Source: Methylococcales bacterium
Lineage (GTDB): Bacteria > Pseudomonadota > Gammaproteobacteria > Methylococcales > DRLZ01
Reading direction: 5' to 3'
NCBI GenBank assembly: GCA_036478815.1
Contig: JAZGEP010000209.1
Location: 1 to 51,511 of the forward strand
DNA length: 51,511 nt
Position numbers and translations under genes: made by a program. Of this stretch, positions 16,944 through 38,399 are shown one piece after another; position 1 is the stretch's first letter, and each line of letters starts with the position of its first letter. The notes beneath the pieces are model-generated. The model worked only from the letters and a program-made list of their open reading frames with translations. It was not told the origin of the DNA and did no database searches.

Positions 16944-17115
16944 TTAGGAACGTGCATGAAATAACTTGAACAATTGACTTGTCTTTTTGATCATCAGTGT
17001 TGCGAAAACAGTTACATGGCTCACTAAGCGCCTGTTTTCGCGCCTTGAATATGAACAGTAATTTGACAAAAATGGCCTACGTTAATTGTTCAAGTTATTT
17101 CATGCGCGTTCCTTA
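16944..17115. mobile_element. MITE, core-2, A-type termini, TTA/TTA flanks
   Basis: TTA-GGAACGTGCATGAAATAACTTGAACA ... ACAGTTACATGGCTCACTAAGCGCCTGTT ... TGTTCAAGTTATTTCATGCGCGTTCC-TTA. Confidence 0.9.
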
Positions 17116-19206: not shown

Positions 19207-19249
19207 TGTGATCTGGATCATAGGTGTTTAGCCAAGTCTGTGTTTATAT
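19207..19249 (+). promoter_or_regulatory. CRP-like box TGTGATCTGGATCATA + TG-extended -10 (copy 1 of a conserved module)
   Basis: Box at 19207-19222, embedded in the 28-bp near-palindrome AACACCTGTGATCTGGATCATAGGTGTT. TGtTTATAT at 19241-19249. The box centre is ~29.5 bp upstream of the hexamer (about -41.5). Confidence 0.45.
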
Positions 19250-19992: not shown

Positions 19993-22179
19993 ATGAAATA
20001 TTTTATTCCTATATTATCTTTGCTATTATTTATTTCAATATCAAATGCAGCATCCACAGAAGCTGGTGTACCCACAGCATTATCTCCGAGTGGAACAATC
20101 AGTACCAATCAACCAACATTCACGTGGACTGCAGTGCCTGAAACCAAGGTATATTTGGTTTATGCCGTAGACGCTGCTGGTGAACTTCCAGTCTGGAGAG
20201 CTGTGGGTGCTAACCAAGCTGGATGCGCATCCGGGACTGGATCTTGCTCGTATACTCATCCATCTGCTATTTTTGCAGAAGGCACAGGTGCTTTCTGGAA
20301 TGTCACTATATTTGACAGAGGTTTTGGCCCAGAAAGCAATACTCTGGAATTTACAGTGGATACAGGAGAAACAACGCCGGCGACACAAGCACCAACAGCT
20401 TTATCTCCGAGTGGTACGATTGATACAGATCAGCCGACTTTTACATGGACAGCCGTGCCAAACACAACATATTATGCGCTGTATGCAAGAGATGCTGAAG
20501 ATGTGCTACAAATCTGGAATATCGTAGGCGCTGATACAGCTGGCTGTGCCTCTGGGACAGGAAACTGTTCGTATACGCACGCACCCGCCACATTTGCAGA
20601 GGGTTCAGGTGGCTATTGGCTTGTCCTGACTGCAGACGATGAGTATGGCCCGGACAGTAATATTCTGGAATTCACAGTGGATACCAGTAATGTCAATCCT
20701 CCAGTTTCCGGCATACCGAAACAGTTGACACCAGATGGAACTATTAACACGAATACACCAACGTTCACTTGGGAGCCAGTGCCAGGTTTCACTAGCTATG
20801 CTATTTATGCAGTTGACTCGTCAGGTGAAGTCAAAGTTAATAATATTGTAGGTTGTACAACCAGTACATGTTTGTATAGTAAATCGGATTCAGTCTTTGC
20901 AGATGGCCCTGCTACATGGGAAATCAGAACTGAAGCTGATGATGGAACCAATGGCATATGGAGTGATATCCTGAATTTTACTGTGGATACAGACAGTAGT
21001 TGTGATCTATCTAAAGATTCTGATAACGATAGATTGCCAGATTGTTATGAAACAAATACAGGAGTATTCCTGAGTAACTTTGATACAGGAACTGATCCTA
21101 ACAAAGCAGATACGGATGGTGACGCAATTAATGATGGCGATGAAGTTCTGGGTACTCAGGCAGGTCTTGATTTACCTGGTATGGGTGTCAGTCCTGTTCA
21201 TAAGGATTTGTTAGTTGAGTATGACTGGTTTGAAGACGAGTTTCCTTGTAACTCTGGTGAACCACATTCACATCGACCTACTGAAGCGATAGTAAACCTT
21301 GTCTCGGCTGGTTTTTCTACAGCGCCTGCTGATCTCATCAACAATCCGGATGGACAACCTGGAGTGAATGTCATCCATGATTATGGCCAGGGTGGTTTGT
21401 TTACTGGCGGGAATTTTATCGATGATAACGATGGAATTATTGATGGTACACCCGATGCGAACAGTCAACAAGATGGAATATACTTTGAAAACATAAAAAA
21501 TCAAAATTTTGATGCTAACCGTCGTGGATATTTTTATCGTGTTTTATTGGCACACGCATTTGGAGAATTTAGTAACACTGTTTCAGGAACATCTGAATTA
21601 CCTGGTGATGATACGATTGTAGCAACACGCTGTGGAGAAGAGAATTTTCACCCTGGTGCAACGACTGAGCTAGTGATTGCAAGTACGATAATGCATGAAC
21701 TAGGACATAATTTAGGATTAAGACATGGGGGTGGTCAATTTTTAAATAGTGGGCCTGATATGAATTACAAGCCCAATTATAACTCCGTTATGAATTATCG
21801 CTTTCAATTTCCAGGAATTGATTCTGATTCAAGTTGCGATTCCCAGCCTGATGGGATAATCGGATTTTCCAATGGTACACGCTTATCATTAGATGAAAGT
21901 AATCTAGATGAAACCCAGGGAGTGTGTGGCAATATTCCAATTGACTTTAGTGGAGATGGTTTTTTTGATATCGGCATTCTGGCTGAAATAAACATCATAG
22001 AATCATTCGCTCAAAAAGATGATTTTATTGAATATACTGGTCAAGGCGATAATGAGACCCACACATTGCTTGATAACAATGATTGGGAAGATCTCGATTT
22101 TTATGCCAAGATCGAACATAGCAATGACGGTGCTGGATCAGGTGCCACATGGATGAAGTGTCAAGGAGGTGTTGAGTAA
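19993..22179 (+). CDS. secreted multidomain zinc metalloprotease (metzincin-type) with three N-terminal repeats and TSP3-like Ca-binding repeats
   Basis: 728 aa with SD AGAGGAAA and a signal peptide. Three ~107-aa repeats (20071-20361, 20392-20685, 20713-20991; core SPSGTI-T-QPTFTWTAVP ... LEFTVDT). Asp-rich DSDNDRLPDCYE / DPNKADTDGDAINDGDE. HELGHNLGLRH at 21694-21726 followed by a Met-turn-like SVMNY. Confidence 0.85.
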   Translation: MKYFIPILSLLLFISISNAASTEAGVPTALSPSGTISTNQPTFTWTAVPETKVYLVYAVDAAGELPVWRAVGANQAGCASGTGSCSYTHPSAIFAEGTGAFWNVTIFDRGFGPESNTLEFTVDTGETTPATQAPTALSPSGTIDTDQPTFTWTAVPNTTYYALYARDAEDVLQIWNIVGADTAGCASGTGNCSYTHAPATFAEGSGGYWLVLTADDEYGPDSNILEFTVDTSNVNPPVSGIPKQLTPDGTINTNTPTFTWEPVPGFTSYAIYAVDSSGEVKVNNIVGCTTSTCLYSKSDSVFADGPATWEIRTEADDGTNGIWSDILNFTVDTDSSCDLSKDSDNDRLPDCYETNTGVFLSNFDTGTDPNKADTDGDAINDGDEVLGTQAGLDLPGMGVSPVHKDLLVEYDWFEDEFPCNSGEPHSHRPTEAIVNLVSAGFSTAPADLINNPDGQPGVNVIHDYGQGGLFTGGNFIDDNDGIIDGTPDANSQQDGIYFENIKNQNFDANRRGYFYRVLLAHAFGEFSNTVSGTSELPGDDTIVATRCGEENFHPGATTELVIASTIMHELGHNLGLRHGGGQFLNSGPDMNYKPNYNSVMNYRFQFPGIDSDSSCDSQPDGIIGFSNGTRLSLDESNLDETQGVCGNIPIDFSGDGFFDIGILAEINIIESFAQKDDFIEYTGQGDNETHTLLDNNDWEDLDFYAKIEHSNDGAGSGATWMKCQGGVE

Positions 22180-22612: not shown

Positions 22613-22773
22613 TAAGTACCTGAGCATCATTAATTTAACATTTTACTGGTCTTTTTTCTCATCTTCGGCGTTGCAACAACAGTTACATAGCTCACTAGAG
22701 CTAAGTTGTTGCGCCTTGAAGATGAAAAAAAATCCTGCGCAAAATTGTTAAATTAATGATGCTCAGGTACTTA
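22613..22773. mobile_element. MITE, core-2, J-type termini
   Basis: TAAGTACCTGAGCATCATTAATTTAACA ... ACAGTTACATAGCTCACTAGAGC ... TGTTAAATTAATGATGCTCAGGTACTTA. Confidence 0.9.
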
Positions 22774-22835
22774 GAACGCTATTTTTAAGCTTGCGATCAG
22801 TTGTTAAAAAAATCAATCAAATTTATATAACCACC

Positions 22836-22879
22836 TGTGATCTAGATCATAGGTCGCCTAATCAAGCCTGTGTTTATAT
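22836..22879 (+). promoter_or_regulatory. CRP-like box TGTGATCTAGATCATA + TG-extended -10 (copy 2), upstream of secreted paralog 1
   Basis: Box at 22836-22851 (15/16 match to TGTGATCTAGATCACA). TGtTTATAT at 22871-22879. Lies ~190 bp upstream of ATG 23039. Confidence 0.5.
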
Positions 22880-23038
22880 TGGTATACAGCAATAAGAATT
22901 GGGCCTATAGCTATCTATATAACAGCATATTCTGGGCATCAATGAGGATATCTCTCTATCCGAATTTTTGGTTATTCCTTTAATTCGAGAAAGTTTTGTT
23001 TCTTAAAACGTTATGGTGACATGACCAAGGAGTGTGAC

Positions 23039-24898
23039 ATGAAAATACGCAATGCAAAACATCTAGCACCGATCATTTCAATACTCAGTATTTTACTTGC
23101 AACCACGGTGGTTAATGCTGCGAACGGTTATTTTGACTGTCCACTCAGCCCTACCGAATTTCAGGTAGCCATTCTCAATCCCGACCCTGGATCTGAATTA
23201 GGCGAATTTCCAGCAGATCTGGATGAAATACTGGGTTATGTACTACAAAACAATATCGGCACGGTAAAAGAATTGCTCGATCATTTGCCAGATCATATGC
23301 GTAAAAATTACGCTTTCGTGGCGGAAACCAGGGGTTTGAATGAAACCAGTGCCGATCAGCCTGGACTTATGCTGTTCGGATCAGATGGCCAATTTATGAT
23401 GAATATCGGTACCATACCGAGCTCCACTCTTTATGAAGTTGTCGACATTGCTTACCTAAATGAGGCAGGTGACTGGGAATTCAAGTCTCTGGATTTTCGT
23501 ACCAGTCCGCCCGTTTTAAGTCCTAATGGTGGCAATAATGCTGAGTGCCGAGAATGTCATGGTAAAGGTGGCGTAGACAGTAACGGTCCAATGCGTCCTT
23601 TCTGGGGAAATTACCTCGACTGGCCTGGCATCTTTTCAGACGACGGACAAGGCGGGGAAAAAATTACGCAGGCACAAGTTGCTGCGCTAACACGCATAAA
23701 AAATGGCACACAAAATCAGGAACGATTTCACAGTATTATTCCCACATTTCGATTTTTTGACACAGTTGATCAGCCGATTTTCTTACCTGATCGTCAATAT
23801 GGAAACAGCTTGACTGTAGCGAATAACGAAATGGGAAGCGCTGCAGTGGAAAGTATTTTCAAGCGTGCCAAACGTTCTCCACTTTATAACCAACTGAGGG
23901 AAGAATATCTGACCTTGGCATACTGTGGACGTGTCGGAGAAGTTTCCCCGGAGGATAAAACCAACCTCTCCAATTTGATTGAAAGCCTGGGTGGAACCAC
24001 TTCTGTATTATCTGCAAGTCTATTTAATGGCTGGATAGATATTGTCAGGTTATGGGGGCTTGATCCGCTGCACGAGTTTCCATTACATAAACTGACTAAA
24101 GAGCATGCGACGACTACCGTAAACGATACCAGATGGAATGCCAGTAGCGGGGATCTTGACGAGCAGTTAACTCTACTGGTGCTGTTAGATCTGGCCGCAC
24201 AGAATCCACAGGTCGATGTCATTCTGCGAAATAATCAATCGTCTTACGAAATGACTAACTGTGGAACGCTTTTTAGCAATCAGAAGGAGTACTTACAACA
24301 TAAAGTCTATGCAAATTTCACCTTGAAAGGCAATGCAAGACAGCTGGCTCGTTCCAGTTACTATGATATTAATTATACCCGCTTCACCCAGTCCATGGTG
24401 AATGTCAAAACCGAGCTATGTGACCTGTTAACCAGTGAGATAGGAACAGATACATTGCAACCAATAACACCTGTTGTGCTCCCAACTCAACCTGTTGATG
24501 ATCCTGCAGCCAATATACCCAATGACCCAGTCAATCAGATCGTCGATGCCTGCCAGCAAGGGCAGACTCCTGTTGGAAACATTCACTTAACTGCAGATAA
24601 CGCAGTCTGTTTGCAAGATGTTTCCAATGGTGATCAAAAACAAATGGCTCTCTTTGTACCCGATGACAAGGTGGGATCTACGTTGGAAATTATACTGAGC
24701 CACGGTAGTGGAAATGGCAATTTATTGCACAAACATGACAGCAGACCAACCAGTGCGGTATTTGATCATAGATCCAGTAATTCTGGAAATGAAGAAAAAA
24801 TACTGGTTCAGAATGTACAACGAAATTGGAACTATATCCATGTCCGCTCTGATCCAGCATTTTCTGGCGTTACTTTGCGAGTCCGTTTTATTCAGTAG
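23039..24898 (+). CDS. secreted protein of unknown family, paralog 1 (single CxxCH motif, degenerate PPC-like C-terminus)
   Basis: ATG 23039 is preceded by AAGGAG. Signal peptide IISILSILLATTVVNA. CRECH at 23546-23560. Pro/Thr linker, then a beta-rich C-terminal domain. Long blocks are identical to the next gene. Confidence 0.8.
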   Translation: MKIRNAKHLAPIISILSILLATTVVNAANGYFDCPLSPTEFQVAILNPDPGSELGEFPADLDEILGYVLQNNIGTVKELLDHLPDHMRKNYAFVAETRGLNETSADQPGLMLFGSDGQFMMNIGTIPSSTLYEVVDIAYLNEAGDWEFKSLDFRTSPPVLSPNGGNNAECRECHGKGGVDSNGPMRPFWGNYLDWPGIFSDDGQGGEKITQAQVAALTRIKNGTQNQERFHSIIPTFRFFDTVDQPIFLPDRQYGNSLTVANNEMGSAAVESIFKRAKRSPLYNQLREEYLTLAYCGRVGEVSPEDKTNLSNLIESLGGTTSVLSASLFNGWIDIVRLWGLDPLHEFPLHKLTKEHATTTVNDTRWNASSGDLDEQLTLLVLLDLAAQNPQVDVILRNNQSSYEMTNCGTLFSNQKEYLQHKVYANFTLKGNARQLARSSYYDINYTRFTQSMVNVKTELCDLLTSEIGTDTLQPITPVVLPTQPVDDPAANIPNDPVNQIVDACQQGQTPVGNIHLTADNAVCLQDVSNGDQKQMALFVPDDKVGSTLEIILSHGSGNGNLLHKHDSRPTSAVFDHRSSNSGNEEKILVQNVQRNWNYIHVRSDPAFSGVTLRVRFIQ

Positions 24899-25026
24899 TG
24901 AGCAATTATTCTGAATCTGTGAGCCTGATGTTTAAAAACTTATCATAGTGGGATTACCAGGTATATTTTATTTCGGTTATTGGAAAAAAGTATACCTGCC
25001 AGCCTGTGATAGTCAATAGATTGACA

Positions 25027-25190
25027 TTAGGGAGCTGGAAACAAATAATCATCCAATATTGCTGGTCTTTTTGTCCGTCTTCTGCGTTGTAGTAACAGTT
25101 ACATAGCCTGCTATGCGCCTGTTACTACCTCTTGAATACGAACAAAAATCCTGCCCAATATTGGACGATTATTTATTTCCAGCTCCCTTA
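25027..25190. mobile_element. MITE, core-2, G-type termini, TTA/TTA flanks, between the two paralog genes
   Basis: TTA-GGGAGCTGGAAACAAATAATCATCCAATATTG ... ACAGTTACATAGCCTGCTATGCGCCTGTT ... CAATATTGGACGATTATTTATTTCCAGCTCCC-TTA. Confidence 0.9.
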
Positions 25191-25252
25191 TTCTCGAAAC
25201 TTCTGGATTCAGGATTTATATCATGTCCCTCGTTATCAAAAAGGAGTGCGAA

Positions 25253-27076
25253 ATGAAAATACGAAAAGTATCAACTCTAGCATCAATTATTTCGGTCATT
25301 GGAGTTTTGTTTTTGACCATTACAGCAGATGTAACGGCCAATACTTATGAATGTCCGCTAAGTCCTACCGAGTTTCAAGTGTCCATTTCCAACCCGGATC
25401 CAGAACCTGAACCGGGGGAATTTCCGGCAGATTTGGATGAGATAATGGGTTATGTGCAGGAAAATAATATTAACTCAGTGAAAGAGTTGATGGATCATTT
25501 ACCCGAACACATGCGTAAAAATTATGCGTTCGTAGCGGAAACACGTGGCTTGGGACATACCAGTACTGAAGAACCGGGACTATTGTTGTTCGGATCAGAT
25601 GGCAGGTTTATGATGAACATGGATACCATGCCGATTTCTCCACGCTACAAAGTTGTTGATATGGCCTATCTCAATGAGAAAGGTGATTGGGAATTTAAGT
25701 CTTTGGATTTCAATATCAGCCCTCCTGTATTAAGCCCTGATGGAGGTAACAACGGTGAATGCCGTCAATGCCATGGACAAGGCGGCGTAAACAGCAACGG
25801 CCCAATGCGACCTTTTTGGGGAACTTATCAGGAGTGGCCCGGATTTTTTTCAGATACCATAGAAAGACAGGAAAGAGTTACACTTCAACAAGCATCTGTG
25901 TTGGCACGCATTGAGAATGGAATGCAAAATTCAGATCGGTTTCATAACCTAATTACCCGGGAGAAATATTTTTTTAAAATCGATCGGTATATTGATTTGC
26001 CTGATCGCGATTATGGCATCAGCCTGACTGTAGCGAATAACGAAATAGGTAGTGCAGCAGCTGAAAGCATTTTTAAGCGTGTTAAGCGTTCACAGCTTTA
26101 TAGTGAGCTGAGGGATGAATATCTGGCTTTGGCATACTGTGCCGGTCAGGGAGTACTCTCTTCAGAAGATAGAATAAATTACACCAGTCTTATACAATCC
26201 CTGGGAGGATCGACCGAAGGTATTACCAACAGATTTGATACTGGTTGGATTGATATCGTTCGGCTGTGGGGGCTGGACCCTTTGCATGAGTTTCCATTAC
26301 ACAAATTAACCCAGGAGTATGCAACGAATACCTTCGTAGAGACTAGATGGAATGTCGGTAACGGTGACCTGCCTGAACAATTGACTTTATTGATACTGTT
26401 AGATTTAGCCGAAAACAATACACAAGTTGATTCGATTCTGCGAAATAGCCAGACATCTTGGGAGATGGATGGTTGTGGAGTTCCCTTTAACAACATGAAG
26501 GAATACTTACAGCATAAAATCTACGCTAATTACACCTTAAAAGGAAATGCTCGACAACTTGCCCGTTCGAGTTACTACGATCAAAACTATCCTCGTTTCA
26601 GCCAATCTATGGAGAATGTCAAAACCGAACTATGCGATTTGCTAGTCAATGATTTTGGGTCTGACACGTCACCATCAACAGAACCTTCCCAGCCATCAGA
26701 ACCTATTGACGATAACAATCTTGATGACACTCCCACCAATAATTCAGATGGCGCATTGTTAGTGACAGGACAATCGGTTTCTATCACACAATCCGAGGAA
26801 GATGCCGAAGACACTTTTTACATAGACGTTCCTGCGGGTACCAACCGATTAGTCATTAGCATTACTGGTGAATTAAGTGATGCTAACTTGGGTAGTGCTA
26901 ATTTATATATTCGTCACGGTTCAAAACCAACCTTATCTGCTTTTGATTGTCGTCCTTACTTCAATGGCAACAATGAAATTTGTAACCAGGAGAATCCGGC
27001 AGCGGGTCGATGGTATGTCACAATTGTAGCATTTGATGCTTATTCCGAAGTTAAGTTGAAAGCTATTATTGAGTAG
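25253..27076 (+). CDS. secreted protein of unknown family, paralog 2 (single CxxCH motif, C-terminal PPC domain)
   Basis: ATG 25253 is preceded by AAAGGAG, in the same RBS context as paralog 1. Signal peptide. CRQCH at 25760-25774. C-terminal pre-peptidase (PPC)-like pattern FYIDVPAGTNRLVISITG...ANLYIRHGSKPTLSAFDCRPY..GNNEICN...GRWYVTIVAFDAYSEV. Confidence 0.8.
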   Translation: MKIRKVSTLASIISVIGVLFLTITADVTANTYECPLSPTEFQVSISNPDPEPEPGEFPADLDEIMGYVQENNINSVKELMDHLPEHMRKNYAFVAETRGLGHTSTEEPGLLLFGSDGRFMMNMDTMPISPRYKVVDMAYLNEKGDWEFKSLDFNISPPVLSPDGGNNGECRQCHGQGGVNSNGPMRPFWGTYQEWPGFFSDTIERQERVTLQQASVLARIENGMQNSDRFHNLITREKYFFKIDRYIDLPDRDYGISLTVANNEIGSAAAESIFKRVKRSQLYSELRDEYLALAYCAGQGVLSSEDRINYTSLIQSLGGSTEGITNRFDTGWIDIVRLWGLDPLHEFPLHKLTQEYATNTFVETRWNVGNGDLPEQLTLLILLDLAENNTQVDSILRNSQTSWEMDGCGVPFNNMKEYLQHKIYANYTLKGNARQLARSSYYDQNYPRFSQSMENVKTELCDLLVNDFGSDTSPSTEPSQPSEPIDDNNLDDTPTNNSDGALLVTGQSVSITQSEEDAEDTFYIDVPAGTNRLVISITGELSDANLGSANLYIRHGSKPTLSAFDCRPYFNGNNEICNQENPAAGRWYVTIVAFDAYSEVKLKAIIE

Positions 27077-27373: not shown

Positions 27374-29662
27374 GTGGTTTATTTATTCAGATTTATTGTG
27401 TTAGTTGCTACTGCCAATGTAGTGTTTGCCACGCCAAACATCATCACAACGCAGGAATTTGAAATACGCAACGGGCACGCTGAAAAAGCCTTTCAACACG
27501 GTGATTTTGAAAATGCCATCGTTCATTGGTTATCGACGGCAGATGTTTTTGCCAGTCGTGGTGAGACAGCCAAGCAAATCACAGCCTTGATCAGGCTCAG
27601 TGATGCATATCAGGCCATGGGTCAAAACGCAGCTTCAATTATTGCTTTAAATGCGGCTAATACACTGACTGACAAATTGACTGATCAACGTCAAAAAATC
27701 AATATATTTAATAGTTTGAGTGCAGCCTATAGTGCTGCTGGAAAGCATCAAAGAGCCACTGTTTTTGTTCAGCAGGCTATTGAGAAAGCTCGCGCTGCTA
27801 ACGCACCAGGACTCCTTGCCGCAACACTCAATAACCAAGGCAATTTGTTGGTTCGTCAGAAGAAATTGAACCAGGCTGTTGAAGCCTACTCTGAGAGTAT
27901 TCAATTGGCTGACTCTTCAGGAAATCAAATGCTTGCTGCAAAAGCATCGGTTAATTCAGTAATCGCAGCTTTTGAAATGGGAATTGTTGACACTATTGAG
28001 GTGAAGTTACTAATCGCACAAGCGCATTTGGAGAAAATCGCCGATGATCATAATAAAGCCTTTCACTGGATCAGTCTGGGGCAGATAGCGCAGCGCTTGT
28101 CTGTCAATGATGCAAATCAACGTCTCTGGCAGCCTTTCGCCCACCATGCTTTTAAACAGGCAAGCGCTATCGGAAAACGTATTTCAGACGCTCGTGCGAT
28201 CTCTTACGCTACGGGCTATCTAGGTGATCTTTATGCGGCTGAGAATCGATATGACGAGGCATTACAGCTCACTCGGCAGGCGATTTTTGCGATCGAAACC
28301 ATCAATGCCCCTGAAATTTTGTATCGTTGGCAGTGGCAAACAGGTCAAATACTGAAAGCGAAAAGTGAACCCAAAGCCGCTATTCAAGCCTATCAACAAG
28401 CTATCAATACATTGCAGTTGGTACGCCAGGATTTTACAGTTCGACAACTAAGCACATCATCCTTTCGTGAGGAAATTGGTCCTTTATATCTGGAGTTAGC
28501 AGATTTGTTACTGCAATCTAACGATACACTATCAGACCAGGACAAAATTCAACACAATCTGGTTGCTGCACGCAATACCATGGAACAGTTAAAAGCAGCA
28601 GAATTACAAGATTATTTTAAAGATGATTGCGTTGTCAGTTTACAGAAAAAGTTGCGTTCGCTGGAAACTATTGATCAACTGACTGCAGCAATCTATCCGA
28701 TACTGCTTGCTGACCGTACAGAGATTTTACTTAGCTTACCGGAGGGGATAAAACGTTTTACCATTCCAGTTAGCCGCGCTGATGTCACTCAGCAGGTACG
28801 GCTTTTTCGTCAAAATCTGGAAAATCGCACCACACGAGAATATCTTCCACAAGCTCAACAACTTTATCAATGGTTGATTGCTCCGCTCCAATCGACATTA
28901 AATGCGCATCAGATTGAAACATTGATAATGGTGCCTGATGAATTCTTGCGAACAATTCCCATGGCTGCGCTTCATGACGGCGAAGCATTCCTGATCGAAA
29001 AATATGCTATCGCAAACACACCAAGTCTGAGTTTAACCGACCCTAAGCCGCTGGATTTGAATAAAATCCATGTTCTCGCTAGCGGTTTATCGGAAGCTGT
29101 TCAGGGGTTTTCACCCCTGCCTCATGTTGCAGAAGAACTAGCCAACATTCAGAAAACACTTGGCGGTCAAGTGTTATTGGACAATGCATTCCTGCTGAAC
29201 AGAATCCAGAAAGAACTAAAAAACACCTCTTATAATATTGTCCATATTGCTTCACATGGACAATTCAAAAACAATACACAGGAAAACTTCGTATTAACCT
29301 TCGATAAAAAGTTAAATATGGATGCGCTGGAGCAGCTTATTGGACAAAGCAGATTTCGTGATAAACCGGTGGAATTACTTGTCTTGAGCGCTTGTCAAAC
29401 CGCAGCTGGTGATGATCGGGCCGCCTTGGGACTTGCCGGCATTGCTATCAAAGCCGGTGCTCGAAGCGCCGTTGCTACTCTATGGTTTATCAACGATCTG
29501 GCGGCGGCTGATTTGGTGACTGAATTTTATCGTCAACTAAAAGCAACCCACACATCAAAAGCCCAGGCATTACAAAAAGCGCAAATTCACCTCATTAAGA
29601 AACCTGCCTATCACCACCCTTACTTTTGGTCACCATTTTTGTTGATTGGTAATTGGCTTTAA
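27374..29662 (+). CDS. signal-peptide TPR-repeat + CHAT (caspase-like) domain protein
   Basis: 762 aa with a GTG start after GAAGGAC. N-terminal hydrophobic signal FIVLVATANVVFA and ~400 aa of TPR-like helical repeats. CHAT dyad: His in VHIASHG (29255-29257) and Cys in LVLSACQTAAGD (29393-29395). Family-typical ending HPYFWSPFLLIGNW. Confidence 0.9.
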   Translation: MVYLFRFIVLVATANVVFATPNIITTQEFEIRNGHAEKAFQHGDFENAIVHWLSTADVFASRGETAKQITALIRLSDAYQAMGQNAASIIALNAANTLTDKLTDQRQKINIFNSLSAAYSAAGKHQRATVFVQQAIEKARAANAPGLLAATLNNQGNLLVRQKKLNQAVEAYSESIQLADSSGNQMLAAKASVNSVIAAFEMGIVDTIEVKLLIAQAHLEKIADDHNKAFHWISLGQIAQRLSVNDANQRLWQPFAHHAFKQASAIGKRISDARAISYATGYLGDLYAAENRYDEALQLTRQAIFAIETINAPEILYRWQWQTGQILKAKSEPKAAIQAYQQAINTLQLVRQDFTVRQLSTSSFREEIGPLYLELADLLLQSNDTLSDQDKIQHNLVAARNTMEQLKAAELQDYFKDDCVVSLQKKLRSLETIDQLTAAIYPILLADRTEILLSLPEGIKRFTIPVSRADVTQQVRLFRQNLENRTTREYLPQAQQLYQWLIAPLQSTLNAHQIETLIMVPDEFLRTIPMAALHDGEAFLIEKYAIANTPSLSLTDPKPLDLNKIHVLASGLSEAVQGFSPLPHVAEELANIQKTLGGQVLLDNAFLLNRIQKELKNTSYNIVHIASHGQFKNNTQENFVLTFDKKLNMDALEQLIGQSRFRDKPVELLVLSACQTAAGDDRAALGLAGIAIKAGARSAVATLWFINDLAAADLVTEFYRQLKATHTSKAQALQKAQIHLIKKPAYHHPYFWSPFLLIGNWL

Positions 29663-29673
29663 ATCCTCGTTCC

Positions 29674-29834
29674 TTAGAAACGTGCATGAAATAACGTGAA
29701 CATTCTGGCTTGTCTTTTTGCTCCTGACGAAACCATCTCAATCGTTGCGTAGAACAACTATGCGCCTCTTTAGATCGTTTCATCAGCAACAAAAATCCTG
29801 CACCATCATTGTTCAAGTTATTCCACGCACGTTT
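29674..29834. mobile_element. MITE, core-1, A-type termini, immediately after the CHAT gene stop
   Basis: TTAGAAACGTGCATGAAATAACGTGAACA ... core-1 hairpin ... CATTGTTCAAGTTATTCCACGCACGTTT. Preceded by the E-type 19-mer TTAAATCCTCGTTCCTTAG (29659-29677). Confidence 0.85.
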
Positions 29835-29883
29835 GTATTTTAGACAACCATAAAGCCGCCCCATATGTGAAAAAAAACAGACC

Positions 29884-29927
29884 TGTGATCTAGCTCATAG
29901 CTCCACAAACCAAAAATGTGTTTTTAT
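29884..29927 (+). promoter_or_regulatory. CRP-like box TGTGATCTAGCTCATA + -10-like element (copy 3), upstream of the DUF928 gene
   Basis: Box at 29884-29899. TGtTTTTAT at 29919-29927. Lies ~200 bp upstream of ATG 30100. The same flanking block (CCTGTGATCT...GTGTTT.TAT) as copies 1 and 2. Confidence 0.45.
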
Positions 29928-30099
29928 AGGGCTATAGGGAAAGAACTGGTTTGGTTTCCATGATCTTATTGACGGAAACTCATTATCGGACGGACTTTTT
30001 TCAGTAATGCTGCATATTCTTACCTATGCATGAACAGTAATTATTAAATCCTTGTTCCTCAGTATCGTGAACATTTATCTAGATAGTAAGAGAATAATT

Positions 30100-30960
30100 A
30101 TGAATATCAACGTCACCTTGTTATTTTATCTTGGGATATTTTGTCTCGGAATAGCCTTTTTGGCGTCCAATGGATTTGCCGAGAATTTACACAAGCCTGA
30201 CCTTCAAAAACGCCTCTTGGGAGCTGATGAAAATACAGAAGGATCGATCCTGAAAAAAACAGATGTACGGTCTAATATTAATGATCAGCAGGTAAAACCT
30301 TCCCAGCGCCCAGTTTACACTCCTCCATTTCTTGGTGCTCCATCTGCCAATCGACTGATTGGCATGGCTGTGCGTGGGATCGACCATGAAGATTTGTTGT
30401 TATCGGTGCTTACGCCAGAGCATACTGGATTAACCTCCCATGCTCAGCCGGTATTTTATTGGTATCTATCCAAGCCGGTTCCCAAATCTTATCAGTTTAT
30501 TGAATTTGTGTTGAGCTCTGATAAATCAACAACACCTGTTTTACGAACACGGTTAGATAAACCCTCAAAAGGGGGTATACAGAAAATACCATTAGCGGAC
30601 TACAACATCAGTCTGATACCAGAAGTAGAATACAGGTGGTCGATTGCATTAGTGTCAGATGCTAATGCACGTTCACTTGATATTGTTAGCAGTGGAAACG
30701 TCAAACTGGCTAAGCCCAATAAGGTATTGGAGACAAGTCTTCAAGCAGTCTCTATTGCACAACATCCTGCTATTTTCGCCCAAGCAGGATTATGGTATGA
30801 AGCGATGACTAGTCTCGTTAATCAAGTTGAGAAGCAACCTGAAAACTTGACACACACTCAAAATTTAGCAGCACTTCTTGAGCAAGCAGGATTACAGGAA
30901 ATAGTTACCCATATGAATAATAATGCTATCAGCATGGGCATTGTAGATAAACAAAAGTGA
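30100..30960 (+). CDS. DUF928-like secreted protein
   Basis: ATG 30100 gives the signal peptide LLFYLGIFCLGIAFLASNGFA. Family-like landmarks from memory: PPFLGAP..R..G..VRG, LTPEHTGLTSHAQPVFYWYLSKP, and C-terminal AGLWYEAMTSL. Confidence 0.7.
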   Translation: MNINVTLLFYLGIFCLGIAFLASNGFAENLHKPDLQKRLLGADENTEGSILKKTDVRSNINDQQVKPSQRPVYTPPFLGAPSANRLIGMAVRGIDHEDLLLSVLTPEHTGLTSHAQPVFYWYLSKPVPKSYQFIEFVLSSDKSTTPVLRTRLDKPSKGGIQKIPLADYNISLIPEVEYRWSIALVSDANARSLDIVSSGNVKLAKPNKVLETSLQAVSIAQHPAIFAQAGLWYEAMTSLVNQVEKQPENLTHTQNLAALLEQAGLQEIVTHMNNNAISMGIVDKQK

Positions 30961-31031
30961 ATGACAGGATAGATACACTATCTGATTAATCGCTGCTTGT
31001 TTTGTTCAGCATGAAATGATGTTTCTCAAGC

Positions 31032-33752
31032 TTAATATTGTTGATTGCAATCAACCCTCATGGCTGAATACAGGATGCTTTTTTCTAATCCTGAATATAA
31101 AGTATCACGATCATTCTCTGGTGAATGCAGGAATGACGCGCCTTTATTAATCGGATATTGAGGTGGAGTCTCATCAATCGTTGTATAATCCAAAAAATCT
31201 GATGGTATCAAATCTCCAGGCTTAACCGGTATTCCACCGCGCCCTTTTACCACAAACCGACTCAAGTTACTTCCGGAACGGGCGGCACATCGCTTACTCA
31301 GCTGCTGTGAAGCATTCATTAATGTATCTGGAAGAACCGCAATGCTACCACTGATGTTGGTATCTGGTGTTAGACTGAGTAAGCCATCCATGCTTACTTC
31401 TGATGAGGCAGTTACCTCGTTGCTGGGTGATTCGAAGACTAAGCCTGAAATAGTGATATTACCACCTGGACCTCCAGCAGCGTCAGCTTTTACTTTACTG
31501 TTGTTGAAAGCCACGATTGGAGTATTAATGATAATATCACCTCCTTTACCATTATCGGCGCGAACACTGGCTTCAATGCTGCTATCACTTAACTGCAAAC
31601 TGTTACCATTGATTATTTTGATATTGCCTGCATCTGGTTGAGTTGATTCAGTTGTAATAGCTGACCCGTTCTGTATACGAAACGTGTTAGATAATGTGAT
31701 AACAATATCGCCAGATTGATTACTCTCGGACTGTCTTGTTTTGTCAGAATTGTCACGAACAATATTTGAACCGAGCGATGCGCCATTATCCAAAAGAATG
31801 TCGTCGGCGGTTATTTTTAAATCTCCGCTTTTACCTGTGCCTGTTGTAGTTGCACTTATGTTTGATTGACTGACTTCTATGTGTTTTGCGTTGATTTGTA
31901 TCTCTCCGGCATTACCGGCAATTGCGGTAGCGGCGTTGATGAGTGATTTATTGGAGATGTTAAGAAAATCAGCATTAATTTTCACATTACCTCCTTTTCC
32001 TGCGTTCAAACTGGTAGTAAGAATGCCAGAAACATCATAGATGTCTATGTGGTCAGCTTTTAATGAAATATTGCCAGAATCTACACTGGAATCAGCAGAA
32101 ATGATCAAATTACCATCTTTATCGGCCTGTAAGGGAATACTGGTAATCAATGAACCACTAAATACTTTTATACTCTTGGCTATTATTGAAATATTGCCAG
32201 CAGATCCAGTATTATCAACTTGTTCTGTAAGGGAAGTAGTCGCAATAAATCCATTATTATAAATTTCCAGTTGACCAGTATTAGCATTAATTGTTAAATT
32301 TCCTCCATTTCCAGAACCATTCGTAAAGACACTGACTATGGCTGAATCATGAATTCTTGGATCCACAGAAACAATCTGTAAATCACCTGTATTTCCTGAA
32401 CTCTTGGTAAAAATTCCGATTGAGCTTCCATCAGAAACATCTAGATAATCAGCATCAATCATCATATTACCTGCATTACCTGCACCCGAGGTAGATGATT
32501 GAATTACAGCACCATCACTGACTTCTAGATTATCAGAATTGATGACTATATTTCCTGCGTTGCCTGCATTTCTCGCTTCTGTGAATAGTCCAGGAACAAA
32601 TTCAGACACATTACCCTCAAGTAGAATAGAATTCGCATTGATTATCAAATCTCCACCTTGACCTGTAGAATGAGTTGTTGAGTTAATGCGTGTCCTATGT
32701 GTTAATTTAATTCCATCAACGTCCAGCATAATGTTACCTGCGTTACCTTCACCTGATGCGAAGGTATCAATACCGCTTTGAGGGGGGGATTCTATATCAT
32801 CTGTTTTCGGAACCCCGTTGATATTTAAATTACCTGTTAAAGCAATATCAATATTACCGCCATTACCGTTTGTTGTATTCGCGGCAATAAATGTGTTATC
32901 CATAATCAATTGTCCACCGCGAATAAATATTGTTCCGGCGGTATCAGCGCTAACATCAACTTCGGCTTTTGTTTTTGATTCAATCGAAACACGTGGAACA
33001 TTCGGGTCATGACTAAGATGAATATTTCCAAATTGAGTAAATGACGTGGTATCCACCCTTGATTCATCCACAATCACTGCTCCGACAGAGTCAACGCTCA
33101 CCAGGTTAATTTGCCCACTGGGTGCGTAGAGTGAACTGTTTTTACTCGTGATGTTCCCTCCGACTAAGGATAGTGTTGAATCTGTTGGTACCTTAAGCAC
33201 GGTGTTTGAGACAGAAATGCCTGCAGGATGACTGTTTAAAAAGCCAAAGGATTCAGGTGCAGCTGTTGTTATTATCGGGCTGATGGTTGCTGTGCCATTG
33301 TTAAAATGCACGCCATCTTTAAACCCTAGATAGTCGGCAGTACTGGCATGAAAAGAACCTTGCACATTAAGGCTCGCATTCTCACCAAAAATTACGCCGG
33401 CTGGATTTAGAAAATATAGATTAGCTCCTGAGATAGTAGAACGTATTGTGCCGTCAATGTTTGATGCTTGCCCACCTGTGACGCGCCCAATAACATTCTG
33501 GATGTCAGTTGAACCACTAAACACAGCACTTTCTGTGTTGTTAAGATTGAATTGTCCAAAGCTGTGAAATAAATTACCACCAGCACGTTGGCCCAAGTCC
33601 TCAGTGATTTGATAATTTGGACCTGAAAGAGTGCCAGCAGCTCCCACAGAGCCATCGAGAGTCACTTCGCTCTGGAGAGAAGAGCTGAAAATACAGATGA
33701 TAATCAGTAGCAAACAATCTTGTGTCGAGAATTTTTGAGTACCGTTTTTCAT
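31032..33752 (-). CDS. two-partner-secretion exoprotein (TpsA-like; filamentous-haemagglutinin N-terminal domain + beta-helix)
   Basis: 906 aa with SD AAGGAG 8 nt upstream and a signal peptide. TPS domain GNLFHSFGQFNL ... VIGRVTGG ... ANLYFLNPAGVIFG ... GSFHAST. Long run of G-N-A/G-G-N-I/M beta-helix repeats. C-terminal CAARSGSNLSRFVVKGRGGIPVKPGD module. Confidence 0.9.
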   Translation of the reverse strand: MKNGTQKFSTQDCLLLIIICIFSSSLQSEVTLDGSVGAAGTLSGPNYQITEDLGQRAGGNLFHSFGQFNLNNTESAVFSGSTDIQNVIGRVTGGQASNIDGTIRSTISGANLYFLNPAGVIFGENASLNVQGSFHASTADYLGFKDGVHFNNGTATISPIITTAAPESFGFLNSHPAGISVSNTVLKVPTDSTLSLVGGNITSKNSSLYAPSGQINLVSVDSVGAVIVDESRVDTTSFTQFGNIHLSHDPNVPRVSIESKTKAEVDVSADTAGTIFIRGGQLIMDNTFIAANTTNGNGGNIDIALTGNLNINGVPKTDDIESPPQSGIDTFASGEGNAGNIMLDVDGIKLTHRTRINSTTHSTGQGGDLIINANSILLEGNVSEFVPGLFTEARNAGNAGNIVINSDNLEVSDGAVIQSSTSGAGNAGNMMIDADYLDVSDGSSIGIFTKSSGNTGDLQIVSVDPRIHDSAIVSVFTNGSGNGGNLTINANTGQLEIYNNGFIATTSLTEQVDNTGSAGNISIIAKSIKVFSGSLITSIPLQADKDGNLIISADSSVDSGNISLKADHIDIYDVSGILTTSLNAGKGGNVKINADFLNISNKSLINAATAIAGNAGEIQINAKHIEVSQSNISATTTGTGKSGDLKITADDILLDNGASLGSNIVRDNSDKTRQSESNQSGDIVITLSNTFRIQNGSAITTESTQPDAGNIKIINGNSLQLSDSSIEASVRADNGKGGDIIINTPIVAFNNSKVKADAAGGPGGNITISGLVFESPSNEVTASSEVSMDGLLSLTPDTNISGSIAVLPDTLMNASQQLSKRCAARSGSNLSRFVVKGRGGIPVKPGDLIPSDFLDYTTIDETPPQYPINKGASFLHSPENDRDTLYSGLEKSILYSAMRVDCNQQY

Positions 33753-33807
33753 CAGTTTATTCTCCTTGTGCCAGAAAGTGCATTACATACTTTGCTCAAT
33801 CTGTTGC

Positions 33808-37635: not shown

Positions 37636-38399
37636 TCGTAACCACTAGCAATATCTTCCAGAGTATCACTATCCAGAATGGTGATGCTGAGGCTTTGTCC
37701 CCCAAGAGAGACTAATCCTTGTTTTTTCCATTTATTAAATTGTCTGTTAACGCTTTCACGCGTGGTACCAATCTCATTTGCTATGTCTTGTTGCGATTTT
37801 TTCCAGTCTAAATAGACGCCTTCAGGCGTTTCTTCTCCTGTTATTTCTGCTGCTTTAATCAACAAACGCGCCAGACTCACAGAAACAGGTAGTAAACCGA
37901 GAACTTCTACTCTATCGTTGGTATCTCTCAACTTCTTACACAAAACTTTCAGCCAGTGAATAGCGATATCAGGATTTTTTTTCAAAAAAGGCAAAAAATC
38001 ACCGCTTCTGATCGTCAATAGCGTCGTTTCTCCAATTGCCGTAGCCGTTGCCGAACGCTGCATGCCATCGATAAAGGCAATTTCACCAAATATTTCTCCT
38101 CGAAATGTAGTATTTAAAATAATTTCTTTACCATCATCCGAGCTGGTGCTGATACGCACTTTGCCATCTAATACTGCCAACAGACTATCTCCGAAATCTC
38201 CTTTTTGAAAGATGATTTGCCCATTCGAATAATGATTCTCAGAAGAAAAAGACAAGATTTTATCGAGTTCTTCAGCAGTTATTCCTCTGAAAAAAATGTT
38301 GTTTGCCAGTAAATTTCGTTTGTCAGGGAGCAAATATGTCACAACGACTTTTCTCCTTCGGCGTAAATGGTTTGACAGATTGACACTATGATAGAACAA
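37632..38399 (-). CDS. Crp/Fnr-family cNMP-binding transcriptional regulator
   Basis: cNMP pocket FGEIAFIDGMQRSATATA. HTH SQQDIANEIGTTRESVNRQF, whose recognition helix RESVNR (37743-37760) keeps the R-E-x-x-x-R pattern of E. coli CRP (RETVGR). The ORF-track start is TTG 38399; GTG 38342 after GAAGGAGA is an alternative. Confidence 0.85.
   Translation of the reverse strand: MFYHSVNLSNHLRRRRKVVVTYLLPDKRNLLANNIFFRGITAEELDKILSFSSENHYSNGQIIFQKGDFGDSLLAVLDGKVRISTSSDDGKEIILNTTFRGEIFGEIAFIDGMQRSATATAIGETTLLTIRSGDFLPFLKKNPDIAIHWLKVLCKKLRDTNDRVEVLGLLPVSVSLARLLIKAAEITGEETPEGVYLDWKKSQQDIANEIGTTRESVNRQFNKWKKQGLVSLGGQSLSITILDSDTLEDIASGYE

What the first reader, a model, noticed from the sequence alone, without database searches (positions are those of the whole stretch)
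23039..27076. Tandem paralogs: secreted ~600-aa proteins of unrecognised family with a conserved single CxxCH motif and PPC-type tails
Seen: two adjacent + strand genes share RBS context (AAGGAGTG.GA.ATGAAAATACG), signal peptides and long identical blocks. Those blocks include HMRKNYAFVAETRGL, GDWEFKSLDF, SNGPMRPFWG, WIDIVRLWGLDPLHEFPLHKLT, LKGNARQLARSSYYD and VKTELCDLL. Both keep C-R-x-C-H at the same position (23546-23560; 25760-25774) and four further aligned Cys. After a Pro/Thr/Ser linker, paralog 2 has a clear pre-peptidase C-terminal (PPC)-like domain. Paralog 1 has a diverged version that lacks the Cys pair. A MITE separates the genes, and the CRP-box module precedes paralog 1. Established: CxxCH in an exported protein is the covalent haem c attachment motif. 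PPC domains decorate secreted hydrolases. Inference: these may be novel extracellular or periplasmic mono-haem (or metal-binding) proteins belonging to the same cNMP regulon. I could not place the ~450-aa core in any family from memory.
Basis: partly seen in the sequence, partly recalled or inferred. Interest (0 to 1): 0.65.

Follow-up and report, generated by a model that had tools for sequence, protein, structure and literature searches.

The report
Secreted haem-c proteins, unknown fold
Two neighbouring genes of an uncultured methane-oxidiser relative encode secreted proteins that almost certainly carry one covalently bound haem, and they belong to a large, unnamed protein family with no known 3D relative that repeatedly sits next to secreted degradative enzymes.

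Summary
P1 (23039-24898) and P2 (25253-27076) are old tandem paralogs: 56% identical, dS saturated, omega about 0.1. Each has a signal peptide, a ~470-aa core and a PPC tail. The core matches nothing in Pfam, NCBIfam or PDB sequences. A confident AlphaFold model (pLDDT 94.5) has no Foldseek match in the PDB.

The family is large, not rare: 1449 clusters at 50% identity. CxxCH is kept in 134-136 of 134-136 distant representatives. The signature is CxxCHG...RPxWGxYxxWPG. No second His or Met is conserved. C296 and C461 co-vary like a disulfide.

Distant members are often fused to class-I cytochrome c domains. Closer ones carry PPC, PKD or Ig-like tails, one is fused to an M12B protease, and others neighbour M9/M4/M43 proteases or an AA10 LPMO.

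P1, the upstream metzincin-like gene and DUF928 share one CRP-box promoter module. The adjacent Crp-like regulator has a CRP-type recognition helix and sits beside a CHASE2-cyclase. The whole TPR-CHAT/DUF928/TpsAB/CHASE2 module is syntenic in other Methylococcales.

Best reading: secreted mono-haem c redox proteins, probably catalytic, under cNMP-Crp control. Haem binding and activity are untested.

The parts
23039..24898 (+). Paralog 1 (P1), 619 aa: signal peptide, ~470-aa haem-c core, Pro/Thr linker, diverged PPC tail
   Evidence: ORF and RBS. 56% identical to P2. Orthologs at 67-74% identity in L001, L013, L015 and L017. Omega 0.04-0.11.
23039..23119 (+). P1 predicted Sec signal peptide (MKIRNAKHLAPIISILSILLATTVVNA)
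   Evidence: Read from the sequence plus a hydrophobicity heuristic. No dedicated predictor was run.
23546..23560 (+). P1 haem-c attachment motif CRECH (C170, C173, H174)
   Evidence: Translation. Invariant across the family.
23594..23629 (+). P1 conserved loop RPFWGNYLDWPG (R186, P187, W189, Y192, W195, G197), the proposed haem-pocket signature
   Evidence: Family-wide conservation of 83-99%. The pocket role is inferred.
24527..24895 (+). P1 C-terminal PPC-like domain, variant with Cys505/Cys524
   Evidence: The same tail sits at 76% identity on a Peptidase_S8 in L012.
25253..27076 (+). Paralog 2 (P2), 607 aa: same architecture as P1, with a canonical PPC tail
   Evidence: Ortholog at 79% identity in L012. 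Omega 0.12-0.13.
25253..25339 (+). P2 predicted Sec signal peptide (MKIRKVSTLASIISVIGVLFLTITADVTA)
   Evidence: Read from the sequence.
25760..25774 (+). P2 haem-c attachment motif CRQCH
25808..25843 (+). P2 conserved loop RPFWGTYQEWPG
26807..27025 (+). P2 PPC domain (PF04151) with Cys566/Cys577
   Evidence: Pfam E = 3.5e-16. PDB 2LUW at 3.4e-11.
22833..22900 (+). CRP-box promoter module upstream of P1. The box TGTGATCTAGATCATA is at 22836-22851. It is followed by TGTGTTTATATTG, with a putative -10 hexamer TATATT at 22875-22880.
   Evidence: A similar box lies 193 nt upstream of the orthologs in L013 and L017, and 260 nt upstream of the first paralog in L012. The class II geometry is inferred.
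22613..22773 (.). Palindromic intergenic repeat element, copy upstream of P1
   Evidence: Folds as one long hairpin, -76.7 kcal/mol, z = -12.7.
25026..25191 (.). Palindromic intergenic repeat element between P1 and P2. Its left arm carries a sigma-70-like TTGACA-17-AATAAT at 25021-25049.
19993..22179 (+). Secreted metzincin-like protein (HELGHNLGLRH...SVMNY) with three N-terminal ~105-aa repeats. It is preceded at 19207-19222 by the same CRP-box module.
   Evidence: Its repeat domain is also inserted in the P1 orthologs P0009 and P0010 (E = 4e-17).
27374..29662 (+). TPR-CHAT protein, the first gene of the conserved neighbouring module
   Evidence: Pfam CHAT 3e-63. Syntenic in L001, L012, L013, L016 and L017.
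29884..30960 (+). Third CRP-box module (box at 29884-29899) and the DUF928 gene (30052-30960)
31032..35616 (-). Two-partner secretion pair: TpsA (31032-33752) and TpsB/ShlB (33808-35616)
   Evidence: Synteny.
35713..38399 (-). CHASE2-nucleotide cyclase (35713-37635) overlapping a Crp-like cNMP-binding regulator (37632-38399)
   Evidence: Recognition helix TRESVNR.

Best explanation
P1 and P2 are Sec-exported proteins. Each is predicted to receive one haem c, thioether-linked to Cys170 and Cys173 with His174 as the proximal iron ligand. After haem attachment they are released to the cell surface or the medium, carrying a C-terminal PPC domain of the kind found on secreted proteases.

They belong to a large, unnamed family with its own fold: short N-terminal helices, a five-stranded beta region, the CxxCH helix, a conserved RPxWGxYxxWPG loop, and then an all-helical half clamped by a C296-C461 disulfide.

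No sixth ligand (Met or a second His) is conserved. The residues around the motif that are conserved are Arg, Trp and Tyr. Distant members are often fused to an ordinary electron-carrier cytochrome c domain. For these reasons I take the haem to be a reactive site, five-coordinate or His/Tyr, that performs redox chemistry (peroxidase-, oxygenase- or reductase-like), and not a simple electron wire.

In the tailed, extracellular clade the protein works alongside secreted degradative enzymes.

In this genome P1, and probably P2 by read-through or from a promoter in the intervening repeat, is switched on together with the metzincin-like protease and DUF928. The proposed switch is the neighbouring Crp-like regulator, responding to cyclic nucleotide made by the CHASE2 sensor-cyclase.

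Shown: paralogy, motif conservation, export signals, tails, fusions, synteny, and the shared promoter module. Inferred: haem attachment, spin state, catalysis, secretion route and regulation.
For: Motif: CxxCH is invariant in 15 of 15 close homologs. Among 144 distant representatives the counts are C170 136/136, C173 135/135 and H174 134/134. This includes proteins with only 2-4 Cys in total.

Other conserved residues: P187, W189 and W195 are at least 98% conserved; R186, Y192 and R229 are 83-91%. No Met or second His is conserved.

Export: 107 of 132 full-length members have an N-terminal hydrophobic segment.

Redox fusions: 20 of 153 members carry a second CxxCH, and 13 of 56 long members hit Cytochrome_CBB3.

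Extracellular tails: PPC 15, PKD 6, Calx-beta 3, plus Ig-like, cadherin-like and GEVED domains.

Company kept: fusion to an M12B protease in P0032. Neighbours are M9/M43 proteases, M9/M4 proteases, an S8 protease sharing the P1 tail, and an AA10 LPMO. Here the neighbour is a metzincin-like protein, which also shares a repeat domain with P1 orthologs.

Disulfide: C296 and C461 co-vary, 46 both present, 13 neither, 2 single.

Selection: omega 0.04-0.13.

New fold: the AF2 model has pLDDT 94.5 and pTM 0.94, with no PDB or BFVD Foldseek hit below E = 0.6.

Regulation: three copies of one CRP-box module, the box conserved upstream of orthologs, the regulator helix R-E-S-V-N-R, and the cyclase and regulator adjacent and syntenic.

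Established knowledge: CxxCH in exported proteins is the System I (Ccm) haem attachment site. In E. coli CRP, R180, E181 and R185 read TGTGA.
Against: No biochemical data exist for any member, and no ccm genes lie in the window.

Absence of a conserved sixth ligand is negative evidence. The ligand could vary between clades. The close subfamily has four invariant His of its own (H231, H345, H350, H421) that could make the haem bis-His and therefore a plain electron carrier.

The links to degradative enzymes rest on a handful of loci. Several distant members have uninformative neighbourhoods.

Synteny with the CHAT module is confined to Methylococcales, so it may reflect shared ancestry and not function. 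It is absent in L004, L014 and L015.

P2 has no CRP box. The box count alone is only modestly above chance: 3 observed against 0.35 expected, and 2 of 100 shuffles reach 3.

Confidence: 0.55

Rival explanations
1. Plain extracellular electron carrier. The haem is six-coordinate and low-spin. The sixth ligand would be, for example, one of the subfamily-specific His, or Tyr192. The protein only shuttles electrons to a partner outside the cell, such as an LPMO-type copper enzyme, a mineral or a mediator.
For: A secreted c-type cytochrome domain (CjX183 of Cbp2D) is known to reduce bacterial LPMOs (PMC8981238). P0025 lies directly downstream of an AA10 LPMO. The close subfamily has four invariant His that could supply a sixth ligand. 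In L013 a multicopper oxidase and SCO1 are nearby.
Against: No axial ligand candidate other than Tyr192 is conserved family-wide. A ~450-aa two-lobed protein is large for a mono-haem carrier. Fusion of distant members to a separate class-I cytochrome c domain suggests that domain is the carrier and this domain is the reactive site. Most neighbours are proteases, which need no electrons.
Confidence: 0.2
2. Haem-based binding protein. This would be a small-molecule sensor or scavenger (NO, hydroxylamine, O2, H2O2) in the manner of cytochrome c'/P460 proteins of methanotrophs and nitrifiers, or a haem carrier. It would have no catalytic role in polymer degradation.
For: Cytochrome_P460 is the only recurrent, though sub-threshold, Pfam hit. 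It appears in 5 of 33 members, and at 6e-4 for P0025, always at the CxxCH region. The order of predicted secondary structure, beta-sheet then CxxCH helix, and the lack of a sixth ligand resemble five-coordinate P460/c'-beta proteins. The host lineage is Methylococcales.
Against: All P460 hits are below the Pfam cut-off and cover only about 35 of 125 profile positions. No P460 or c' structure was found by the PDB profile search, by phmmer or by Foldseek. PPC/PKD tails and protease or LPMO neighbours are not what gas-binding periplasmic cytochromes have.
Confidence: 0.1
3. Accessory or cargo of the neighbouring TPR-CHAT/DUF928/two-partner-secretion system. The protein would be processed by the CHAT protease or exported or anchored through TpsAB, and its main role would be structural or signalling within that module.
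For: The gene is adjacent to the module in four Methylococcales lineages despite local rearrangement. P1 and DUF928 share the CRP-box module.
Against: P1 and P2 lack a TPS domain. Family members outside Methylococcales, and some within (L014, L015), lack the module. The family is far more widespread than the module in the loci examined.
Confidence: 0.08
4. Not a haem protein. The Cys-x-x-Cys-His would form a disulfide or bind a metal ion (Zn, Cu or Fe), and the core would be a non-redox enzyme or a binding domain.
For: Haem has not been demonstrated. The close subfamily has an HEFxLH motif and extra His residues. One member carries a MopE-type metal motif elsewhere in the protein.
Against: The C, C and H are all about 100% conserved, with fixed spacing, in exported proteins over 1449 clusters. 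This is the hallmark of haem c attachment and is far stricter than structural disulfides, which are lost in about 20% of members here (C296/C461). HEFxLH is not conserved outside the subfamily. It is HExxxH, not HExxH. UniRef's automatic rule already calls a member a cytochrome c domain protein.
Confidence: 0.04

Closest known systems
c-type cytochromes in general (covalent haem on CxxCH, matured by Ccm/System I in proteobacteria)
   Same: An exported protein with a strictly conserved single CxxCH whose His serves as proximal ligand. Some relatives are fused to class-I cytochrome c domains.
   Different: The ~450-aa core matches no cytochrome family in Pfam or NCBIfam and no PDB fold. No Met or His sixth ligand is conserved.
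Cytochrome P460 / cytochrome c'-beta (PF16694)
   Same: It works like this family in outline. A beta-sheet region precedes a CxxCH near the end of that lobe, and no sixth ligand is conserved. There are recurrent weak Pfam hits at the CxxCH segment. P460 occurs in methanotrophs and nitrifiers (from my own knowledge).
   Different: Scores stay below the Pfam cut-off and cover only about 35 of 125 positions. No hit came from the PDB profile search, phmmer or Foldseek. This protein also has an additional ~250-aa helical lobe and extracellular tails.
X183 cytochrome domains of Cbp2D-type secreted redox proteins (Cellvibrio japonicus, Teredinibacter turnerae; PMC8981238, PMC10916295)
   Same: A c-type haem domain in a secreted, multidomain protein of a polymer-degrading secretome. 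One relative (P0025) is adjacent to an AA10 LPMO.
   Different: X183 is a small class-I-like cytochrome. Its structures are described in those papers, yet no PDB entry of any kind matched this family by sequence profile or Foldseek.
Di-haem peroxidase / MauG-type enzymes (catalytic haem plus electron-transfer haem)
   Same: Analogy only, from my own knowledge. Distant members pair this domain with a class-I cytochrome c domain, as catalytic and electron-transfer haem pairs do.
   Different: No CCP_MauG Pfam hit. P1 and P2 have a single haem motif. Fold and sequence are unrelated.
PPC-tailed secreted proteases of marine and environmental bacteria (PF04151; e.g. the metalloprotease of PDB 2LUW, and E495 in PMC3327674)
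   Same: The same C-terminal PPC module after a Pro/Thr-rich linker. P1's tail variant is shared at 76% identity with a subtilase in L012.
   Different: The catalytic module is replaced by a haem-c core, not a peptidase.

Membership tests
c-type haem proteins | CxxCH motif present and conserved among homologs | tested here: met
   15 of 15 close homologs keep it. Counts among distant representatives are C170 136/136, C173 135/135 and H174 134/134.
c-type haem proteins | Protein exported across the cytoplasmic membrane | tested here: met
   N-terminal signal-like segments are present in P1 and P2 and in 107 of 132 full-length members. This is a heuristic; no SignalP run was made.
c-type haem proteins | Covalently bound haem demonstrated | not testable with these tools
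   Needs haem staining, a pyridine haemochrome assay or mass spectrometry on purified protein.
c-type haem proteins | Host encodes a cytochrome c maturation system | not tested
   No ccm genes were seen among the window ORFs that were annotated. The rest of the genome is unavailable. Gammaproteobacteria normally have Ccm (from my own knowledge).
Class-I cytochrome c (PF00034 / PF13442) | Pfam match of the core, and a conserved Met sixth ligand | tested here: not met
   The core gives no hit. No Met is conserved. Only the extra fused domains of distant members hit these models.
Cytochrome P460 / c'-beta (PF16694) | Score at or above the Pfam gathering threshold (27 bits) | tested here: not met
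   The best score is 20.6 bits (P0025). 5 of 33 members give weak hits, always to profile positions 82-117 only.
Cytochrome P460 / c'-beta (PF16694) | Structural or sequence match to solved P460/c' structures | tested here: not met
   Foldseek against the PDB with the pLDDT-94.5 model gave nothing below E = 1. The profile search and phmmer against PDB sequences gave no hit. A domain-only fold search could not be run.
Cytochrome P460 / c'-beta (PF16694) | Beta-sheet platform followed by CxxCH, with a five-coordinate haem | tested here: inconclusive
   The model has five strands before the CxxCH helix, and no sixth ligand is conserved. Coordination state cannot be computed here.
PPC domain (PF04151) | Pfam match above threshold in the C-terminal tail | tested here: met
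   P2 scores 60.3 bits. P1 alone scores 19.8-22.5 bits, below the cut-off, but 6 of 7 orthologous tails match and their profile hits 2LUW at 4.9e-7.
Zinc metallopeptidase (HExxH zincins) | Conserved HExxH with a third ligand | tested here: not met
   The motif is HEFPLH, which is HExxxH. It is invariant only in the close subfamily and variable in the 144 distant members.
Di-haem peroxidase / MauG (PF03150) | Two CxxCH motifs and a Pfam CCP_MauG match | tested here: not met
   P1 and P2 each have one CxxCH. No such Pfam hit was found in any member scanned.
X183-type secreted cytochrome domains (Cbp2D) | Sequence or fold similarity to solved X183 structures | tested here: not met
   No PDB hit of any kind by profile or Foldseek.
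CRP/FNR-type regulon member | Palindromic TGTGA-N6-TCACA-like site at promoter distance | tested here: met
   The box at 22836-22851 has one mismatch to the palindrome. It is part of a ~75-nt module repeated at 19207 and 29884 and is conserved upstream of orthologs. P2 has no box.
CRP/FNR-type regulon member | Cognate regulator with CRP-type recognition residues | tested here: met
   The regulator at 37632-38399 has cNMP_binding and HTH_Crp_2 domains, and its helix reads T-R-E-S-V-N-R.
CRP/FNR-type regulon member | Regulator binding and cNMP-dependent expression | not testable with these tools
   Needs EMSA or footprinting and expression analysis.
MITE | Conserved terminal inverted repeats and target-site duplications across copies | tested here: not met
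   The centre is conserved (76-81%), but the outer arms differ between copies while staying self-complementary. Target-site duplications were not examined.

The most novel reading that the evidence does not exclude
This family is a new class of secreted haem-c oxidative enzymes, or dedicated redox partners, with its own fold. Bacteria would deploy it outside the cell together with proteases and LPMO-type oxidases to attack recalcitrant biopolymers. In Methylococcales it would have been wired into a CHASE2-cyclase / Crp circuit that also controls a CHAT protease, DUF928 and a two-partner secretion system.
Probability: 0.3. Interest if true: 0.75.

Novelty: new variant of a known kind. Interest (0 to 1): 0.55.

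Why it matters
This would give a name, a signature (CxxCHG...RPxWGxYxxWPG) and a confident structural model to a family of about 1,400 sequence clusters. These proteins are currently annotated only as hypothetical or by their tail domains.

If the haem is catalytic, it adds an unrecognised extracellular redox activity to bacterial secretomes. This bears on an open question: the Cbp2D study (PMC8981238) notes that no bacterial LPMO electron donor had been identified before it.

It also supplies candidate output genes for a widespread but unstudied CHASE2 / CHAT / DUF928 / two-partner-secretion module.

Tried and rejected
(1) Metallopeptidase reading of the invariant HEFPLH. Rejected: the motif is HExxxH and is not conserved outside the close subfamily.

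(2) Membership of cytochrome P460. Only sub-threshold, 35-residue Pfam hits were found. The PDB profile search, phmmer and Foldseek gave nothing. It is kept as a lead only.

(3) First AlphaFold run with a 10-sequence alignment. It gave pLDDT 61.6 and meaningless Foldseek hits. It was superseded by the 133-sequence run.

(4) The word-indexed homolog search made the family look rare, with 15-17 hits. The exhaustive HMM search showed 1449 clusters.

(5) Rfam scan of the window for the palindromic repeat: no hit.

(6) Literature on DUF928, CHAT, CHASE2 and TPS together: nothing relevant beyond caspase-CHASE2 fusions.

(7) Homology between the window's metzincin-like protein and the protease domain fused in P0032. 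Only the zinc-site motif aligns, so the link is at class level only.

(8) Search for further family members in the window or in the L013 neighbours: none.

(9) A conserved operon partner among distant members: none seen.

(10) Geometry of the haem pocket and of the subfamily-specific His cluster: not possible, because model coordinates are not exposed.

Full report
**What is there.** The window carries two adjacent + strand genes. P1 runs from 23039 to 24898 (619 aa) and P2 from 25253 to 27076 (607 aa). Both start at ATGAAAATACG, preceded by AAGGAGTG(T/C)GA(C/A). Four further Cys align, at residues 34, 296, 408 and 461. Each protein begins with a signal-peptide-like segment and ends, after a Pro/Thr/Ser-rich linker, in a PPC domain.

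**The tails.** The P2 tail is canonical PPC (PF04151, 3.5e-16) and has the usual Cys pair. The P1 tail alone is sub-threshold. However, 6 of 7 orthologous tails hit PPC, and their profile hits the PPC structure 2LUW at 4.9e-7. P1's tail uses a different Cys pair (505/524).

**Both genes are real and the duplication is old.** Nei-Gojobori estimates give dN 0.21 for P1 against P2 in the core, with dS saturated. For P2 against its L012 ortholog omega is about 0.12, with dS 0.85. For P1 against its L013 and L015 orthologs omega is 0.04-0.11. P1-type and P2-type genes each have their own orthologs in other genomes. L012 has a third, more diverged paralog that still keeps CFECH...RPIWGNY.

**The family.** The ~470-aa core hits nothing in Pfam or NCBIfam and nothing in PDB sequences except through the PPC tail. 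The word-indexed search found only 15 relatives. An exhaustive profile search of 1.84 billion representatives found 1449 clusters at E <= 1e-3, 333 at <= 1e-10 and 54 at <= 1e-30. None of 30 sampled members matches a Pfam or NCBIfam family above threshold. Source names are "hypothetical protein", "PKD domain-containing protein" (Endozoicomonas, Rhodanobacteraceae) or an automatic "Cytochrome c domain-containing protein" (Flammeovirga).

**Conservation.** All members were aligned to a family profile.
- Among 144 distant representatives, C170 is kept in 136/136, C173 in 135/135 and H174 in 134/134.
- P108, P187, W189 and W195 are at least 98% conserved.
- R186 (Arg or Lys), Y192 and R229 are 83-91% conserved.
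- The signature is CxxCHG-x(3-10)-RPxWGxYxxWPG.
- No Met or second His is conserved.
- Many members have only 2-4 Cys in total. This argues against a purely structural role for the CxxC.
- C296 and C461 co-vary like a disulfide: both present in 46 members, both absent in 13, only one present in 2.
- The HEFPLH motif that is invariant in the close subfamily is not conserved further out. A zincin reading is therefore rejected.
- The close subfamily does have its own invariant set: G109 (Arg in 130 of 136 distant members), H231, H345, H350 and H421. This remains unexplained.

**Structure.** With a 10-sequence alignment AlphaFold gave pLDDT 61.6. With 133 sequences it gave pLDDT 94.5 and pTM 0.94. 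The model has short N-terminal helices, five beta-strands, a helix carrying CxxCH, the conserved loop, and then an all-helical C-terminal half. Foldseek found no PDB match below E = 1 (TM <= 0.12) and no viral match below E = 0.6. A family profile also found no PDB sequence relative. The only recurrent weak signal is Pfam Cytochrome_P460, in 5 of 33 members and at 6e-4 for P0025. It always covers the ~35 positions around CxxCH and always scores below the cut-off. I treat P460/c'-beta as the nearest functional analogy (beta platform, then CxxCH, with no sixth ligand), not as a family assignment.

**Architectures and company.** Among the 56 longer members the fused domains are as follows.

| Fused domain | Members |
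|---|---|
| PPC | 15 |
| Cytochrome_CBB3 (class-I cytochrome c) | 13 |
| PKD | 6 |
| Calx-beta | 3 |
| Cytochrom_C | 3 |
| Ig-like (Big_9) | 2 |
| Cadherin-like, GEVED, LRR | 1 each |
| M12B reprolysin-like protease (P0032) | 1 |

In all, 20 of 153 members have a second CxxCH. There are therefore two classes: surface or extracellular, and redox-partner-fused. The neighbourhoods of the extracellular clade repeatedly hold secreted degradative enzymes:
- M9 and M43 proteases next to P0015.
- An M9 collagenase and an M4 protease flanking P0018.
- An AA10 LPMO with chitin-binding modules directly upstream of P0025.
- An S8 subtilase in L012 that carries P1's tail variant at 76% identity.
- In this window, a metzincin-like protein (HELGHNLGLRH...SVMNY). 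Its N-terminal repeat domain is also inserted into the P1 orthologs P0009 and P0010 (E = 4e-17).

More distant members have uninformative contexts. Secreted c-type cytochrome domains that reduce LPMOs are a published precedent (CjX183, PMC8981238; TtX183, PMC10916295). They are small class-I-like domains, and no PDB entry matched this family.

**Genomic and regulatory context.** Downstream of P2 lie, in order, TPR-CHAT, DUF928, TpsA, TpsB, a CHASE2-nucleotide cyclase and a Crp-like regulator. The same module lies beside the haem gene in L001/L002/L016, L012 and L013/L017, which are all Methylococcales. It is absent in L004, L014 and L015.

The box TGTGATCT(A/G)G(A/C)TCATA occurs three times in the window, against 0.35 expected by chance. 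Each copy lies upstream of a + strand gene: the metzincin-like gene, P1 and DUF928. Each is embedded in a shared ~75-nt module whose spacing to a TATATT hexamer fits a class II CRP promoter (the geometry is inferred). Similar boxes lie 193 nt upstream of the P1 orthologs in L013 and L017, and 260 nt upstream of the first paralog in L012.

The regulator's recognition helix reads T-R-E-S-V-N-R. This is the CRP-type R-E-x-x-x-R pattern (the CRP-DNA contacts are established knowledge). P2 has no box. It is separated from P1 by a palindromic repeat whose left arm carries a good sigma-70-like promoter match. P2 may therefore be read through from P1 or have its own promoter.

**Organism.** The window's fumarase is 91% identical to that of a Methylococcales MAG and 88% identical to that of a Crenotrichaceae MAG. 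The closest genomic relatives of P1 are in Methylococcales, Methylomonas and Crenotrichaceae MAGs.

**Interpretation.** The haem-c reading is strongly supported by conservation, export and fusions. I put it at about 0.9. That the haem is a reactive site and not a wire is an inference. It rests on the missing sixth ligand, the conserved Arg/Trp/Tyr loop, the protein's size, and the pairing with separate carrier domains. The whole chain has confidence 0.55. Four rivals are listed with their refuting experiments: electron shuttle, P460-like binder or sensor, accessory of the CHAT/TPS module, and non-haem metal site.

**Novelty.** This is a new family and fold within the known kind "c-type haem proteins". 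Interest is moderate to good (0.55). It would be higher if the link to extracellular oxidative chemistry holds.

Noticed in passing
window 1-90 (partial), 1975-2105, 16955-17100, 22613-22773, 25026-25191, 29670-29830: An intergenic palindromic repeat of about 130-165 nt. Each copy folds as one long hairpin (about -75 kcal/mol, z about -12). The ~100-nt centre is conserved between copies. The outer 32-36-nt arms differ between copies while staying complementary within a copy, and they fall into sub-types. This is the opposite of a classical MITE. There is no Rfam hit.
   Followed up: partly
window 19207-19222, 22836-22851, 29884-29899: Three copies of one ~75-nt CRP-box promoter module. They precede the metzincin-like gene (about 790 nt before its start, an unusually long leader), P1 and DUF928. 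Two of the three lie 60-65 nt downstream of a copy of the palindromic repeat.
   Followed up: partly
window 27374-38399; also L001, L012, L013, L016, L017: A conserved module: TPR-CHAT, DUF928, TpsA/TpsB two-partner secretion, CHASE2-adenylate/guanylate cyclase and a Crp-like regulator. The searchable literature holds no description of this module.
   Followed up: partly
window 19993-21100; P0009/P0010 residues ~480-585 (L013 9560-9870): A ~105-aa Cys-containing domain (PTALSPSGTI.T.QPTFTWT.VP...) with no Pfam match. It is repeated three times at the N-terminus of the metzincin-like protein and is inserted once between the core and the tail of P1 orthologs (36-39% identity, E = 4e-17).
   Followed up: partly
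P1/P2 residues 109, 231, 345, 350, 421 (e.g. P2 nt 25577-25579, 25943-25945, 26285-26287, 26300-26302, 26513-26515): The close subfamily replaces a near-universal Arg109 by Gly. It has also gained four invariant His that the wider family lacks. This suggests a remodelled haem pocket or a second metal site.
   Followed up: no
L020 6322-10118: A family member (P0025; Ig-like, cadherin-like and GEVED tail) lies directly downstream of an AA10 LPMO with GbpA_2 and CBM_5_12 modules, on the same strand.
   Followed up: no
L012 5111-7321: A Peptidase_S8 subtilase carries a C-terminal domain 76% identical to P1's PPC-variant tail. The tail is therefore a shuffled module of this lineage's secreted proteins.
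   Followed up: partly
window 14100-16586 (-) and 17954-18400 (-): An 827-aa protein combines thioredoxin-like DUF255 (Thioredox_DsbH), a GlcNAc 2-epimerase-like region and a DsbD_N domain. A 147-aa protein gives a weak Small-metal-binding-protein (SMBP) hit. Both lie a few kb upstream of the cluster.
   Followed up: no
L013 746-7685: Upstream of the P1 ortholog in the hydrothermal-vent contig lie a multicopper oxidase, an SCO1/SenC protein and a 573-aa protein with faint cytochrome c hits. This is a copper and redox neighbourhood. The 573-aa protein is not a member of this family.
   Followed up: partly
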